Shown here in pieces: positions 24,712-45,971 of a stretch of DNA of 64,000 nt. A program made the translations under genes and the position numbers. Source of the DNA: Eledone cirrhosa (Eukaryota); NCBI GenBank assembly GCA_964016885.1, contig OZ024742.1:256122001-256186000 (forward strand). Reading direction: 5' to 3'. The notes under the pieces are model-generated. The model had not been told where the DNA came from, made no database searches, and saw nothing but the letters and a program-made list of their open reading frames with translations. The first letter of the stretch is position 1; each line of letters starts with the position of its first letter.

Positions 24712-25129
24712 AAACAATCATGAAATATAGTGCGATCTAGAATTTTAACTACGTTTCTCATTATTAAGCTAATTTTGGAACATGATTTAACAAAAGTTCT
24801 TAAATAAGAACTATGTACAAATATTGAAAGGAAAAGCTTTGTGTCATAATAACAAGGGGGTTTCAGGCAATGTACTATCAAAACGTTTAACGTAGATTCA
24901 GGGTGTCACAGTGTATGACACGGATAGGCATATATTTATATAATTCATTTTTTTCTTCTGTGTAGGTTCGGGAACGGAGAAATAAAGTGTCTTGCTCAAG
25001 TATATAACACATTGCCGTGAATCAAAATAATCGCTCAAAGATGGTAGGTTGAAAGGCTTAGGAACTAAGTCATGCGCCTTCACATACCACACTATGATAT
25101 AACACAAATATAATATTTGTTGCTTGACA

Positions 25130-25360
25130 TTACAATACAACGGGAGAAAACATGATAATAGCACTGATGATGTCACCGGTGTGTGATGAAATAACTTTGA
25201 TAGACTATATATATATTAACCGTTGGTCAATCAATGATAAACGTTGATTGCAAGTTAAATTAACTATAGGTATATCAAATCCAAAGCAAACAGTGAGTGT
25301 GTTTTATTAATATTTCTGGTAATATTATAACAATTTGACGCTCCACAATTATAACAGTAT
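25130..25360 (+). mobile_element. PLE 3'-end/pLTR fragment with hammerhead-like motif (dispersed family)
   Basis: tagca-CTGATGA-tgtcac...gtgat-GAAA-taac-TT-tgata (25159-25202), followed by accgttggtcaatcaa...aaacagtgagtgtgtt, which is shared with 42850-43165 (+) and 50552-50765 (-). Confidence 0.65.
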
Positions 25361-25569
25361 ATATATATTTACATTTCTGTATATATATATAGGTATTGAA
25401 GTTTCCGTTGAAAATTGAAAAAGTCATAGGAGTGAAGAGTGCTCTATGTAAGTACCAGAGCAAAATTTAATGTATAATAAACAATACAATATAATTACCT
25501 CATTACCAGAGGTTTCCCGAATAAGACGAATACGAAAGAAACGTCCTCATTCGTTCGTCGGACAAGGCA

Positions 25570-25612
<43 letters not shown>

Positions 25613-25882
25613 GAAATTAAAATGTTGAAGACCAACACAGTGCGTATGGAGAATGTTAAATTGGCAAGATAACAAAACAATCTTACCTTAGCGACTTTAA
25701 CGTTCCCAAATATTTTGGGGTTTAAAAATCCATTATCAAGGGAGTAACCCCATGAGAGATTTAAACATCGGTCGGATAGACTTGCTTCTGTGGAAGCAGA
25801 TTTACACATACACACAAACACAAACACACAAATACAAACACACAAACACACACACACATACACGCCCCCCCCCCACACACAC

Positions 25883-25956
<74 letters not shown>

Positions 25957-26169
25957 ATGTATATATAGTATTAAGGATACTATTTATGGTTATGTATATA
26001 CTAAAACCTTTTATAGTTATATATATTTTATATCCTAAATAGTGAAAGACAGTAATTTATTACTATCTTATTACCAGCAAGATAAATAGCTCAACGTAAC
26101 AACATCAGTTGTTTTACAGAACAGTTATATAGAGATTACATGAATCAAAGTTCTGTTTAAATCATTTAT

Positions 26170-26218
26170 TTGCTTACAATTGTTTCTTCCAAACCGAGGT
26201 TTAGAGTCTTCGGAGCAA
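26170..26218 (-). ncRNA. Type I hammerhead motif, U4C core
   Basis: Minus strand reads ttgct-CCGAAGA-ctctaaacc tc ggtttggaa-GAAA-caattg-TA-agcaa. Confidence 0.78.
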
Positions 26219-26830
26219 TTATTCAGTGATTTTTAACATACTTGACCTCCTTTTCAACACAAAAGACATATAGAAACATATGTATATATTGACCCACAGT
26301 GGGTTGACATCCATTATAATAATATAGCATGGTAATTTACATATAAAGATTACAGTCATATTAAAGGACAAAATTAAAGTTAAAATTAAAATTAAAATTA
26401 AAATAAAACATTGGCAGTTTACTAAGATAAAGCAAGAGGAAAGTCTTGAGTAGCCAGTGTATGCCACAGTCACACGTGTGACATGCACGCGTGTCCTATT
26501 AATACAAAATTATTACACGTAACAATCTGCCGCACTATAATCTTGTATTAATAGGACACGCGTGCATGCCACACGTGTAACTGTTGCATACACTGGCTAC
26601 TCCAGACTTTCCTCTTGCTTTATCTTAGTAAACTGCCAATGTTTTATTTTATTTTTATTTTAATTTTAACTTTAATTTTGTCCTCTAATATGGCTGTAAT
26701 CTTTATATGTAAATTACCATGCTATATTATTATAATGGATGTCAACCCACTCTGGGTCAATATATACATATGTTTCTATATGTCTCTTGTGTTGAAAAGG
26801 AGGTCAAGTATGTTAAAAATCACTGAATAA

Positions 26831-26879
26831 TTGCTCCGAAGACACTAAACCTCGGTTTGGAAGAAACAATTGTAAGCAA
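26831..26879 (+). ncRNA. Type I hammerhead motif, U4C core
   Basis: ttgct-CCGAAGA-cactaaacc tc ggtttggaa-GAAA-caattg-TA-agcaa. Stem I is 5 bp, stem III is palindromic, and the triplet is GUA. Confidence 0.78.
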
Positions 26880-27134
26880 ATAAATGTTTTAAACAGAACT
26901 TTGATTCATGTAATCTCTATATGTATATATATACATTTTTATAATTTTCATAATTTTGATAGGTTTCTGAATAGCTTTCTCATGACGTTAAAGTTTAAGA
27001 AGTTGAAATATGTCAGAGTCACGTGTACTATGTGTACCATTAGACTAAATCTCAGAGGAATTCAGCGTGACACAGTATGTGTCAAGATTGGTCCTTCAAA
27101 TTGGAAGAACAGTTCAACTTATATTATTATCTAT

Positions 27135-42448: not shown

Positions 42449-42849
42449 AAGTGAATACGAACACTCCAGGCAAGAACATGACGGTAACATAGACAACATA
42501 GAAATTAAAATAATATCTAAACATAGAAATGACCCAGCAGAGAGGGAAGTGAAATAGAACTTAGAAGGCCAAAGCTAAACAGAAAAAAAAAATGAATGGA
42601 ATAACGACAATACCCAAACAAACAATACTGACCGTAGAGAAATATAAATATATAAATAAATATATACACAAGCACAACAACAAACACATATAAACACACA
42701 CTAGTAAACTAAGATAGCATACAAAAACCAAAACACAGTCATCCAAACGCGAACACGCATCAAACACGATACACACACGCAAACGCATGCGCAGAGAAGA
42801 AGACACAAGTAAATAAATAAATAAACAGATTAAATAAAGATGGCGTAGA

Positions 42850-43165
42850 CATACAATACAACAGGAGAAAACGTAATAGCAGCACTGACGGCATTGCAGA
42901 TGTGCAACGAAAGAACTTTGTTAGACTATATATATGTGTTTGTGTCTATATAATATCTGTATTTTTGACCGTTGGTCAGTCAATAGTAAACATTGAGGAC
43001 CGAATAAATTAACTGATATAAAAGATATAGAAGCGAAAACCAACCAAACAGTGAGTGTGTTCTGTTATTAATTCTGGCAATATTATTACAACAATATGAC
43101 CCTCCCCAAGTATAACATTACTTGTTTCGACACACGATTTCATATCAAAAACCTCGCAAAACAAA
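42850..43165 (+). mobile_element. PLE 3'-end/pLTR fragment with degenerate HHR
   Basis: ca-CTGACGG-cattgca gatg tgcaac-GAAA-gaac-TT-tgtta (42880-42923). Same family as 25130-25360 and 50552-50765. Confidence 0.62.
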
Positions 43166-43754
43166 TATATATATATATATATATATATTAGTAAAAAGGA
43201 ATAGAAAATGCTGACGAAGTTTTCCCAGTGAAAAATAGTTTAATTAGGAATAAGTATGAATTAGTAATAAGTATTGGTTAGTATTCAGTTTTAGTTTTAA
43301 GTTTTTACCGGTTGCGCATTTCTAATGCTTTTCAAAAATAATTTTGAGATAGAGCGCTCGTGATGTTTGTTCTATAGAGCAAACATCACAAGCGCTCTAA
43401 GGATTTTCTTTTCCCTTTTACTAATATATTACAACTCGTGTGTCACACCTCTATTTAAAAAAAAAAAAATAATAATATATATATATATATATATATATGG
43501 TTTTAAATTTTGATACCACATATATATATATATATACCATATATATATATAGTATTAGTTATACTATTTATGGTTATGTAAATACAAAACCTTAAGCAGT
43601 TATAAGTATTTTACACACACCCTAAATAGTGGTAGGCAGTAATGTATTACTACCTTATTACCAGTAAGTTAAGTAGCTCAATGTAAAAACATCAGATGAT
43701 TTACAGAGCAGTTATATGAAATATAAGAATCAAAGAACTGTTCAAAACATTATT

Positions 43755-43803
43755 GTGCTTACAGCTGTTTCCTCCAAACCGAGGTTTGGATTCTGCGGAG
43801 CAA
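43755..43803 (-). ncRNA. Hammerhead motif, mutated core CCGCAGA
   Basis: Mirror of 45861-45909 with an additional A6C change. Confidence 0.6.
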
Positions 43804-45860
43804 TTTATTAATGCATGGACAGTTATATGACCTCCTTTTCAGCCGAGAGACATTCCGATACATATTCAAACATTGATACATATTCCAACATTGTGGGTCA
43901 ACATTCATTACAGAATTTAGAGTGGCAGTACACAATTCGAGATTACATTTATATTAAGAGGTACAATCAAAAATCAAAAATACAGGTTAAAATACAACAT
44001 GAAGATAAGCGGTTATATAGTGCAAATGTTATATGTATGGCACGCATGTGCGTCTTGTTTATATAGTGTGGCAGAGAGATATGTGTGGTAGAGGCACTTA
44101 GGTAGGTAAACAAGAGTGTTAGGTTGGTAGATCTGGTGGCAAATTCTTTATATGATTGATATAGTCTGTGTGTGGAGAAATGTTATAAGCATTAAAATTA
44201 GTGCAAGCATTAAAAGTGTTAAAAGTATTCGAGATGCACAGCGAAGGGATGTCAAGTATTTCATGTACTTCGGCATTTTCATGGTCAGGGGAGTGTATTT
44301 TTCGATTATATGCCCCTCACATAATCCACGACAATCCGATATTGAGCGTTTGACAATCCAGTTAGAGATCGTAGTCTGGTGTTCTTTAGTTCAATACAGG
44401 AGGCTGTTACGTTTCGAGAAACGCCATTGAATACCACCCGGAAGTGTGTGTGTGGCTAAGGGGAGTTAATACATGCGGGGAGGTAACTCCGGCGTTTCTA
44501 AACCTAGCTATTAAAATGTGTCACAATATAGACCCTAATTTCTATGGTGATGCGCATCCTCCAAGAAAATTTTTAAAGCATAAAGTATATTAACTATAGA
44601 GTAGTTTAATTAAGTTATGCTGAAGGTGATCATATTATTATGGTGGATTAACCCATCGTAAGGTGCCACAAATGGAAATTATAGATGATGAGCGAGGATT
44701 CTAAAATAATGATCTCTGTGGTTGTAGTCTACTACATTGCAACTGCCGTGCGGGTTGTACATATATGGATGATCTGACGGCCAGAGAGGGGTCGCGAGGA
44801 CTGCGGATTGACCTCTGGCCGGCCTGGGGATGATTATCTTTCGACATCCAATGTAGCAAGCGTTGACCCAGAACTTACCAGTGATCATTGGGTCCTGAAG
44901 CAATCCTGCAATCACCGCGCCTGGTCCTATGAGTAGACTACAACCACAGAGATCATTATTTTAGAATCCTCGCTCATCATCTATAATTTCCATTTGTGGC
45001 ACCTTACGATGGGTTAATCCACCATAATAATATGATCACCTTCAGCATAACTTAATTAAACTACTCTATAGTTAATACACTTTATGCTTTAAACATTTTC
45101 TTGGAGGATGCGCATCACCATAGAAATTAGGGTCTATATTGTGACACATTTTAATAGCTAGGTTTAGAAACCCCGGAGTTACCTCCCCGCATGCATTAAC
45201 TCCCCTTAGCCACACACACACTTCCGGGTGGTATGCAATGGCGTTTCTCGAAACGTAACAGCCTCCTGTATTGAACTAAAGAACACCAGACTACGATCTC
45301 TAACTGGATTGTCAAACGCTCAATATCGGATTGTCGTGGATTATGTGAGTGGCATATAATCGAAAAATACACTCCCTGACCATGAAAATGCCGAAGTACA
45401 TGAAATACTTGACATCCCTTCGCTGTGCATCTCGAATACTTTTAACACTTTTAATGCTTGCACTATTTTTAATGCTTATAACATTTCTCCACACACAGAC
45501 TATATCAATCATATAAAGAATTTGCCACCAGATCTACCAACCTAACACTCTTGTTTACCTACCTAAGTGCCTCTACCACACATATCTCTCTGCCACACTA
45601 TATAAACAAGATGCACATGCGTGCCACACATATAATATTTGCACTATATAACCGCTTATCTTCATGTTGTATTTTAACCTGTATTTTTGATTTTTGATTG
45701 TACCTCTTAATATAAATGTAATCTCGAAGTGTGTACTGCCACTCTAAATTCTGTAATGAATGTTGACCCACAATGTTGGAATATCTATCAATGTTTGAAT
45801 ATGTATCGGTATGTCTCTCGGCTGAAAAGGAGGTCATATAACTGTCCATGCATTAATAAA

Positions 45861-45909
45861 TTGCTCCGAAGAATCCAAACCTCGGTTTGGAGGAAACAGC
45901 TGTAAGCAC
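45861..45909 (+). ncRNA. Type I hammerhead motif, U4C core
   Basis: ttgct-CCGAAGA-atccaaacc tc ggtttggag-GAAA-cagctg-TA-agcac. Stem III is the palindrome CAGCTG, versus CAATTG in the 26-kb copy. Confidence 0.8.
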
Positions 45910-45939
45910 AATAATGTTTTGAACAGTTCTTTGATTCTT

Positions 45940-45971
<32 letters not shown>

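What the first reader, a model, noticed from the sequence alone, without database searches (positions are those of the whole stretch)
25965..26922. Second, independent HHR-capped palindrome of the same family with the same asymmetric architecture
Seen: 386-bp arms and a 23-nt spacer. The terminal ~300 bp is clearly homologous to, but diverged from, the 43.5-46 kb element. In both elements the right arm stops at the same homologous point, about 45 nt past the HHR, and runs into (TA)n, while the left arm continues ~160 bp further. Inference: two separate insertions with the same geometry point to a programmed mechanism (a fixed internal priming site plus fold-back or template switch) rather than random rearrangement.
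Basis: partly seen in the sequence, partly recalled or inferred. Interest (0 to 1): 0.75.

Follow-up and report, generated by a model that had tools for sequence, protein, structure and literature searches.

The report
Penelope-like retrotransposon insertion with inverted arms
This palindrome is a truncated insertion of a high-copy Penelope-like retrotransposon in a (TA)n microsatellite, and its two inverted arms were likely copied from the element's RNA starting at two fixed sites 160 bases apart, an architecture already described for this class of element.

Summary
Arms 26127-26513 and 26537-26922 are 96.6% identical, with a 23-nt spacer. The left arm runs 161 nt further, to 25966. The element at 43552-45951 has the same geometry.

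It is not a new kind of structure. Both loci are 5'-truncated insertions of a Penelope-like element (PLE): RT plus C-terminal GIY-YIG ORF, tandem pseudo-LTR units of about 4.2 kb, (TA)n flanks, and thousands of copies in this 3-Gb genome.

Copy ends fall in two sharp peaks. Of 92 ends seen, 44 lie at q1-4 and 40 at q160-167. Of 33 head-to-head pairs, 30 join one long-ended and one short-ended arm, and none joins two alike. The second subfamily shows this in 12 of 12 pairs.

This is the published PLE signature: an inverted 5'-truncated copy plus a one-sided "tail". In 2024 it was explained in vitro by reverse transcription starting at two internal RNA sites on both cleaved DNA strands.

Fold-back is not supported. 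The "spacer" is element sequence continuing the right arm, and the short-ended arm is the longer one in 9 of 30 pairs.

The "HHR" fits the PLE minimal hammerhead layout but has C at core position 4. Rfam does not detect it, and cleavage is untested.

New here: a 161-nt tail and a shared UAACUGYUC box.

The parts
25865..25965 (.). (TA)n microsatellite abutting the long-form end, preceded by (CA)n from about 25790. It is either the insertion target or the tail.
   Evidence: Sequence. In the genome sample, 37 of 44 long-form ends and 32 of 39 short-form ends abut (TA)n.
25966..26513 (-). Long-form arm: a 5'-truncated PLE copy. RNA sense is on the - strand, and its 3' end is at 25966 (= q1). It reaches element position about 530 of a long natural copy.
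   Evidence: ORF direction comes from L035.
25966..26126 (-). The 161-nt one-sided 'tail': the sequence between the two start sites, present only in the long-form arm.
   Evidence: The literature describes a 30-40-bp tail (PMC8557442) that equals the sequence between two RT start sites (PMC11167929).
26170..26219 (-). Hammerhead-like motif of the left arm.
   Evidence: It meets the min-HHR descriptor if C is allowed at core position 4. Motif table.
26514..26922 (+). Short-form arm: a 5'-truncated PLE copy with RNA sense on the + strand. Its 3' end lies at the internal site (q162). It includes the 23-nt 'spacer' 26514-26536, which is element sequence (positions 531-554).
26831..26879 (+). Hammerhead-like motif of the right arm: UUGCU / CCGAAGA / C / helix II with CUCG loop / A / GAAA / C-AAUU-G / UA / AGCAA. 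Predicted cleavage is after 26874. Helix II is weakened in this copy (ACUAAAC instead of UCCAAAC).
26915..26936 (+). Short-form end (...AATCTCTATA) running into a short TA tract.
43552..44733 (-). Second element, long-form arm (a different subfamily). Its tail is 43552-43712. Its hammerhead-like motif is at 43755-43803, with the core mutated to CCGCAGA.
44734..45951 (+). Second element, short-form arm. It includes the 198-nt 'spacer' 44734-44931, which continues this arm. Hammerhead-like motif at 45861-45909. The end at 45951 is followed by (TA)n.

Best explanation
The locus is a 5'-truncated insertion of a Penelope-like retrotransposon (PLE) in a (TA)n microsatellite, and its two inverted arms were likely made in one event by target-primed reverse transcription from both cleaved DNA strands, one starting at the element's terminal site (q1) and the other at a fixed internal site 161 nt upstream (q162).

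Shown:
- The family encodes an RT plus GIY-YIG ORF.
- It forms tandem units of about 4.2 kb with pseudo-LTRs.
- It has thousands of young copies.
- Copy ends fall at only two positions.
- Every complete inverted pair joins one end of each kind.
- Inner junctions are variable.
- The 'spacer' belongs to the short-form arm.

Inferred:
- Both strands of the self-complementary (TA)n target give a ...TA-3' primer.
- Each primer starts cDNA immediately 5' of a UAACUGYUC box that occurs twice in the RNA.
- The two cDNAs stop at independent points.
- Their 3' ends are joined through 0-17 nt of overlap or short filler.

In vitro work on another PLE supports initiation at two internal sites and extension of both strands. 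The hammerhead-like motif 48 nt upstream of the internal site does not define any copy end, so it would not be needed to explain the geometry.
For: PLE identity:
- The ORF carries RT motifs and IIY..YIG..R..H..CxxC..E.
- The AlphaFold model (mean pLDDT 73.9) matches reverse transcriptases including telomerase. There are 127 PDB hits at E<=0.001, among them 9vma_A at 1.6e-7, TERT 6zdu_A at 3.5e-7 and group II intron RT 6ar1_A.
- The C-terminal 143 aa is nearest to 'GIY-YIG domain-containing' clusters at 0.95. PF01541 matches 2 of 34 homologues, best E 0.0037.
- Tandem junction ...CTTAATACTA|TTAACTGCTCC..45 nt..ATG occurs in 4 loci and in 5 of 5 junctions of the second subfamily. Same-strand copies lie about 4.2 kb apart.

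Two fixed ends:
- Of 92 ends, 44 lie at q1-4, 40 at q160-167 and 8 elsewhere.
- A sample drawn with a probe shared by both arm types gives 19 long, 25 short and 0 other.

Pairing:
- Of 33 pairs with both ends seen, 30 are long+short, none is long+long and none is short+short.
- In the second subfamily, 12 of 12 pairs are long+short.
- Older relatives L125 and L132 show the same pairing.

Start-site stutter: 11 of 39 short ends carry (AG)>=3 between (TA)n and the element.

Single event: within-pair identity exceeds the mean identity to other copies in 25 of 27 pairs.

Literature, main text read:
- PMC8557442: inverted 5'-truncated copies, a tail at one end, (TA)n targets.
- PMC11167929: RT starts at two internal sites, the tail is the stretch between them, both strands are cleaved and extended, and HHR mutants still insert.
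Against: - No RNA or biochemical data exist for this element. No RNA run was listed.
- The published tail is 30-40 bp; here it is 161 nt.
- In the published case the start sites had no homology to the cleaved DNA. Here both sites sit in UA-rich sequence next to a (TA)n target, so microhomology-guided priming or joining cannot be separated from protein-guided initiation.
- Three of 33 pairs have a second arm ending elsewhere (q651, q654, q1441), and a triplicated locus has an end at q275.
- Higher within-pair identity could also come from gene conversion between palindrome arms.
- Pfam does not recognise the ORF or its homologues at its thresholds. A profile search of PDB sequences found nothing.
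- The loci sampled are the best-scoring, hence youngest, copies. Two of the 30 pairs (C3:290.50 Mb and C3:290.53 Mb) share a flank and may not be independent.
Confidence: 0.8

Rival explanations
1. Snap-back (fold-back): one cDNA primed at q1 folds on itself, copies itself back, and is joined to the (TA)n target at an internal TATATA by microhomology.
For: Some insertions are near-perfect palindromes. The inner ends of the two arms lie within 60 nt of each other in 6 of 30 pairs, including this locus. The internal end sits in TATATA next to a (TA)n target.
Against: The short-form arm carries element sequence that is absent from the long-form arm: 24 nt here and 198 nt in the second element. 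It is the longer arm in 9 of 30 pairs, for example 1290 against 696. A self-copied strand cannot contain sequence its template lacks. A second TATATA at about q290 is never used as an end. The (AG)n stutter at 11 of 39 short ends fits initiation, not end-joining. Solo copies ending at q161-162 exist (L067, L071).
Confidence: 0.06
2. Two independent insertions of the same family, in opposite orientation, into the same (TA)n tract.
For: The family targets (TA)n, or brings (TA)n with it. Outer-end to outer-end neighbours occur, for example the left flank of L008.
Against: The inner junction has no (TA)n and shows 0-17 nt of overlap or short filler. Pairing is long+short in 30 of 33 pairs, with no like-with-like pairs. 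Independent events would give about half like-with-like, since both end types are about equally common. The arms of a pair are more alike than random copies in 25 of 27 pairs.
Confidence: 0.04
3. A DNA-level rearrangement (replication-error palindrome or segmental duplication) unrelated to transposition.
For: The flanks of the two window elements share a 270-nt similarity upstream.
Against: That similarity is an old dispersed repeat with 3638 first-look candidates at 75-82% identity. The same end positions recur on many chromosomes in three or more subfamilies.
Confidence: 0.02

Closest known systems
Poseidon PLE of Anolis carolinensis (PAc), studied in vitro (Frangieh et al. 2024, PMC11167929; main text read, supplements not seen)
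   Same: RT plus GIY-YIG ORF in tandem units with pseudo-LTRs. Reverse transcription starts at two fixed internal RNA sites, and the genomic 'tail' is the stretch between them. Both DNA strands are cleaved and extended. Targets are AT-rich. A hammerhead lies upstream of the start sites and is not needed for insertion.
   Different: The tail here is 161 nt, not 30-40 bp. Both start sites lie in UA-rich sequence that can pair with the (TA)n target, whereas the PAc sites had no homology to the cleaved DNA. The start sites lie in the 3' UTR/pLTR just before the unit junction, not inside the ORF. Nothing has been tested biochemically here.
General PLE insertion architecture (Craig et al. 2021, PMC8557442; passages and figure legends read)
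   Same: High 5' truncation. Partial tandems forming pLTRs. An inverted 5'-truncated copy adjacent to the main copy. A tail at only one end. (TA)n target bias. High copy number in marine invertebrates.
   Different: That paper attributes the tail to endonuclease-mediated resolution and gives no pairing statistics. Here 30 of 33 pairs, plus 12 of 12 in the second subfamily, are strictly one long end plus one short end. The clade of this family (Neptune-like or other) was not determined.
Minimal type I hammerheads of PLE pseudo-LTRs (Cervera and De la Pena 2014, PMC4209133; main text read, figures and supplements not seen)
   Same: Long helix II (7 bp). Short helix I (4-5 bp). An unpaired base after A9. 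A two-pair helix III with a palindromic 4-nt loop. Paired motifs 100-700 bp apart on opposite strands.
   Different: The core reads CCGANGA, with C instead of U at position 4, in 5898 of 6070 motif copies. There is no G10.1-C11.1 pair, and an extra unpaired base precedes G12.
Twin priming of human L1
   Same: The second DNA strand primes cDNA at an internal RNA position, giving an inverted 5' segment. The junction forms by microhomology.
   Different: In L1 the internal position varies and the two segments do not overlap. Here the internal site is fixed, and both arms cover the same part of the element.

Membership tests
Penelope-like element (EN+ PLE) | Reverse transcriptase related to telomerase RT | tested here: met
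   RT motifs are visible in the ORF. The AlphaFold model matches RTs including TERT at E 1e-7 to 1e-6. No tree was built, so the specific kinship to TERT was not tested. Pfam finds no RT domain.
Penelope-like element (EN+ PLE) | C-terminal GIY-YIG endonuclease with Cys-rich linker and CCHH motif | tested here: met
   Motifs CNCRSNRTCPLDKKC, IIY-x12-YIG, R, H and CNLCLLETH are read from the sequence. The model places strands and helices confidently there. Atlas nearest clusters are named GIY-YIG at 0.95. PF01541 matches only 2 of 34 homologues, best E 0.0037. The support is moderate.
Penelope-like element (EN+ PLE) | Tandem or partial-tandem units forming pseudo-LTRs | tested here: met
   The 3' terminal region sits directly upstream of the ORF start in L043, L044, L054 and L018. 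Junctions were seen in 5 of 5 loci of the second subfamily. Same-strand spacing is about 4.2 kb.
Penelope-like element (EN+ PLE) | Inverted 5'-truncated copy next to the main copy | tested here: met
   44 head-to-head pairs were found among the fetched loci. Both window elements show it.
Penelope-like element (EN+ PLE) | Tail extension at one end only | tested here: met
   30 of 33 pairs, plus 12 of 12 in the second subfamily, have the extension on exactly one arm. Its length is 161 nt, against the 30-40 bp in print.
Penelope-like element (EN+ PLE) | Hammerhead motif in the pseudo-LTR | tested here: inconclusive
   The motif has the right place and architecture but C at core position 4.
Hammerhead ribozyme (type I, minimal PLE form) | Core box C3-U4-G5-A6-N7-G8-A9 | tested here: not met
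   All 109 copies tabulated read CCGAAGA or a derivative of it. Genome-wide, 172 of 6070 motif matches have T at position 4. C4-G5 is a CpG, so those 172 may be decay products.
Hammerhead ribozyme (type I, minimal PLE form) | GAAA box, A15.1-U16.1 pair and H17 cleavage triplet | tested here: met
   GAAAC...GUA in both window subfamilies, and GAAAC...GUC in older relatives.
Hammerhead ribozyme (type I, minimal PLE form) | Helices I and II, and a short helix III with a palindromic loop | tested here: met
   Descriptor hits in 2 of the 4 window arms, and 0 hits in 100 simulated windows. Loop 3 is AAUU in one subfamily and AGCU in the other, both palindromic. The four differences between the two subfamilies' commonest motifs, as tabulated (these are not the window's own E1 copies, which carry further helix II substitutions), fall on the bulge, the unpaired base and loop 3.
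Hammerhead ribozyme (type I, minimal PLE form) | Match to Rfam hammerhead covariance models | tested here: not met
   No hit at E<=10, even on a 101-nt search. The control was also missed: a relative with a canonical CUGAUGA...GAAAC...GUC core. The negative result therefore says little.
Hammerhead ribozyme (type I, minimal PLE form) | Self-cleavage | not testable with these tools
   No RNA runs were listed. A natural U4C viroid hammerhead is reported to work in vivo (passage in PMC3088659).

The most novel reading that the evidence does not exclude
The strict one-long, one-short pairing would be an in-vivo footprint of an obligately asymmetric, probably dimeric, PLE particle. In this reading the particle primes one RNA at two UAACUGYUC-marked sites from the two strands of a (TA)n break. 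The lineage's conserved C4 hammerhead (about 5,900 copies) would be a protein-assisted ribozyme that tolerates a core change usually considered disabling.
Probability: 0.2. Interest if true: 0.55.

Novelty: new member of a known kind. Interest (0 to 1): 0.3.

Why it matters
The locus is an ordinary product of a known class of retrotransposon, so the claim of a new programmed mechanism falls away.

It is still a clean natural data set for a poorly understood integration pathway. This family has thousands of young copies and an unusually long (161-nt) gap between its two start sites, so long-form and short-form arms cannot be confused.

Three observations give testable constraints on how Penelope-like elements prime both DNA strands:
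- the strict long-plus-short pairing;
- the shared box 3' of both start sites;
- the (AG)n stutter at the internal site.

For genome annotation, such insertions look like hairpins or miRNA precursors to RNA-family scans. They should be masked as PLE fragments.

Tried and rejected
- Rfam: no hammerhead hit at gathering thresholds or at E<=10. Only palindrome-driven miRNA-like matches below threshold appeared. The control on a canonical-core relative also failed.
- Pfam on the ORF and its homologues: nothing at threshold.
- Profile search of PDB sequences: nothing.
- Earlier notes of this scan: none for this genome.
- RNA evidence: no RNA holder listed. The three runs listed hold under half of the words and are of unknown kind.
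- Fuzzy-regex extraction of the motif timed out and was replaced by BLAST.
- Folding energies of the motif are not distinctive (z -1.1 to -1.8).
- Lunse et al. 2017 on PLE hammerhead dimers is not held.
- Considered and dropped: Helitron, foldback DNA transposon and DIRS-like inverted repeats. The ORF, the pLTR tandems and the variable 5' truncation point to a PLE.
- Not attempted: clade assignment (Neptune, Poseidon or other), target-site duplications (hidden by the microsatellite), and a dimer prediction of the protein.

Full report
**1. The observation**

The palindrome is real. The repeat finder reports arms 26127-26407/26642-26922 (96%) and 26371-26513/26537-26679 (90%), 23 nt apart. A global alignment of the whole arms gives 374 matches, 12 mismatches and 1 gap.

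The element at 43.5-46 kb has arms 43713-44733 and 44932-45951 with 198 nt between them. Those arms show 1006 matches, 14 mismatches and 1 gap.

The outer about 320 nt of the two elements are about 79-81% identical. In a four-arm alignment both right arms stop at the same homologous point, and both left arms run about 160 nt further to TAGTATTA.... All four ends abut TA-rich repeats.

**2. What the family is**

I number the element from 25966 (q1) in the orientation of the left arm.

- A probe of q1-325 finds 2707 first-look candidates in the 3.0-Gb genome. The 40 that were scored are 97-100% identical.
- Long copies carry an ORF on the opposite strand, so the RNA sense of the left arm is the - strand and q1 is the element's 3' end.
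- Natural copies give ORF pieces that together span about 820 aa. They show the motifs ADKT, FDINSYY, MGSSDS, YRDD and FLD...HKP...SNHP, then a Cys-rich linker, IIY-x12-YIG, and CNLC...E.
- Pfam does not recognise the ORF. A profile search of PDB sequences finds nothing.
- 689 homologues exist. The only one with an organism name is from an octopod.
- An AlphaFold model built on 34 sequences has mean pLDDT 73.9. It matches reverse transcriptases, including telomerase, group II intron RT, defence RTs, retron RTs and LINE-1 ORF2p, with 127 hits at E<=0.001.
- The C-terminal 143 aa is nearest to clusters named GIY-YIG at 0.95. PF01541 matches 2 of 34 homologues weakly.
- In full-length copies the 3' terminal region (q548 to q1) lies directly upstream of the ORF, joined as ...CTTAATACTA|TTAACTGCTCC...45 nt...ATG with no (TA)n between. 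This is a pseudo-LTR tandem. The unit is about 4.23 kb.
- The second subfamily has 1306 exact copies of its 20-nt 3' end, with same-strand neighbours about 4.2 kb apart. It shows the same junction in 5 of 5 loci read.

These are the defining traits of an endonuclease-bearing Penelope-like element.

**3.

I merged 114 copies of the first subfamily from 86 fetched loci. For 22 of them the 3' end lay outside the locus.

- Of the other 92, 44 end at q1-4, 40 at q160-167 and 8 elsewhere. Three of those 8 are one triplicated locus.
- In the sample drawn with a probe common to both arm types (q171-335), 19 copies are long-form, 25 short-form and none other.
- There are 44 head-to-head pairs. In 33 of them both outer ends are visible. 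Of these, 30 are long+short and 3 are long+other (q651, q654, q1441). None is long+long or short+short. Two of the 30 share a flank and may not be independent.
- In the second subfamily my reading of the table gives 12 of 12 long+short. One of these assumes continuity across 2 kb that the reference does not cover.
- Two pairs from older relatives follow the same rule.
- Solo copies of both kinds exist, for example L063 (long) and L067 and L071 (short).

**4. Fold-back or two primings**

The 23-nt "spacer" of this locus is the reverse complement of positions 531-554 of a long natural copy. The short-form arm therefore reaches position 554, while the long-form arm stops at 530. The 198-nt spacer of the second element likewise continues its short-form arm.

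Across the 30 pairs the short-form arm is the longer one in 9, for example 1290 against 696 and 339 against 111. The inner ends lie within 60 nt of each other in only 6. A cDNA that copies itself cannot contain sequence that its template lacks, in either direction. Two separately primed cDNAs are therefore needed.

- Inner junctions show 1-17 nt of overlap in 16 pairs, 0-1 nt of gap in 5, and 10-202 nt of filler in 9.
- Arms of one pair are more alike than each is to other copies in 25 of 27 pairs. This fits a single event from one source, although gene conversion could contribute.

**5. The two start sites**

- 37 of 44 long-form ends and 32 of 39 short-form ends abut (TA)n.
- 11 of 39 short-form ends carry an (AG)n run between (TA)n and ...ATTACATG. 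This is a stutter on the template's CUCU and fits initiation there.
- In RNA sense the contexts are ...UAAUACUA|UUAACUGCUCC (terminal site, read across tandem junctions) and ...UAAUCUCUAUA|UAACUGUUCUG (internal site).
- In the second subfamily they are ...ACUAAUACUA|UUAACUGCUCC and ...UUUCAUA|UAACUGCUCUG.
- Both starts therefore lie immediately 5' of a UAACUGYUC box.
- Because (TA)n is self-complementary, a break in it offers a ...TA-3' end on both strands. This step is inferred.

**6. Comparison with print**

Craig et al. 2021 (PMC8557442; passages and legends read) describe PLE insertions as highly 5'-truncated partial tandems. These often carry an adjacent inverted 5'-truncated copy and a 30-40-bp tail at only one end. 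They report (TA)n as a preferred target and hammerheads in the pLTR.

Frangieh et al. 2024 (PMC11167929; main text read, supplements not seen) purified a Poseidon PLE protein. They showed that it cleaves and extends both DNA strands, and that it starts reverse transcription at two adjacent internal RNA sites. The tail is the stretch between those sites, and hammerhead mutants still insert.

The differences here are:
- a 161-nt tail;
- start sites that can pair with the target;
- a quantified strict long+short pairing;
- the shared box.

**7. The "HHR"**

The commonest form of the motif is UUGCU-CCGAAGA-C-UCCAAAC-CUCG-GUUUGGA-A-GAAA-C-AAUU-G-UA|AGCAA.

It fits the PLE minimal hammerhead layout described by Cervera and De la Pena 2014 (PMC4209133; main text read). 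That layout has a long helix II, a short helix I, an unpaired base after A9 and a tiny helix III with a palindromic loop. Pairs of motifs lie 100-700 bp apart on opposite strands.

- A descriptor scan finds the motif in 2 of the 4 window arms if C is allowed at position 4. It finds no canonical hammerhead in the window, and no hit of either kind in 100 simulated windows.
- The two subfamilies differ at four motif positions: the bulge, the unpaired base and two loop-3 bases (AAUU against AGCU, both palindromic).
- Core position 4 is C. Of 6070 genome matches to the motif, 172 have T there. Because C4-G5 is a CpG, those may be decay products.
- Older relatives read CCGAUGA or CUGAUGA ... GAAAC-GAUU-GUC.
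- Rfam finds nothing, but it also misses the canonical-core relative.
- A natural U4C viroid hammerhead is reported to keep function in vivo (passage in PMC3088659).

I file it as hammerhead-like, with cleavage untested. It lies 48 nt (47 nt in the second element) upstream of the internal start site and defines no copy end.

**8. Independence of the two window loci**

The two loci belong to different subfamilies and have different inner junctions. The only flank similarity is an old dispersed repeat of about 270 nt, with 3638 first-look candidates at 75-82% identity.

**9. Verdict**

The thing itself is a new member of a known kind.

Limits:
- the copies sampled are the best-scoring ones;
- there are no RNA or biochemical data;
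- the clade was not placed;
- supplements of the cited papers were not read.

Noticed in passing
window 25125-25415 and 42848-43120: An old SINE-like dispersed repeat of about 270 nt ending in a TA tract lies a few hundred bases upstream of both PLE insertions, in the same orientation. It has 3638 first-look candidates genome-wide, at 75-82% identity.
   Followed up: partly
G000:C4:308479535-308483799 (L074 and L045): One copy spans exactly one tandem unit, from the internal site (q161) through the unit junction to q166 of the upstream repeat. It has (TA)n only at its 3' side. This suggests that the template RNA begins, or the enzyme stops, at the same internal site. It is a single example.
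   Followed up: no
L009 (C2:89808996-89809121) and L028 (C2:334669043-334669134): Two unrelated loci have a short inverted arm whose outer end lies at q651-654 without (TA)n. This may be a minor third junction site or a recurrent rearrangement.
   Followed up: partly
genome-wide: At least three or four PLE subfamilies share helix II (UCCAAAC/GUUUGGA) but differ in loop 2 (CUCG, GAAA, GAUA, GGCU, UAAA), in position 7 and in the cleavage triplet (GUA against GUC). C at core position 4 is the majority state in all of them.
   Followed up: partly
window 43344-43410: A 26-bp perfect hairpin (GAGCGCTCGTGATGTTTG...CAAACATCACAAGCGCTC) gives weak sub-threshold miRNA-like Rfam matches. Its nature is unknown.
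   Followed up: no
window 26466-26586; L132 1460-1648: The centres of PLE palindromes score as miRNA precursors in Rfam at E down to 1e-13, yet below the gathering thresholds. This is a likely source of false miRNA calls in this genome.
   Followed up: no
L008, left flank of the copy: Two copies lie 3' end to 3' end, separated only by (TA)6. This fits repeated insertion into, or next to, the (TA)n tails of earlier copies.
   Followed up: no
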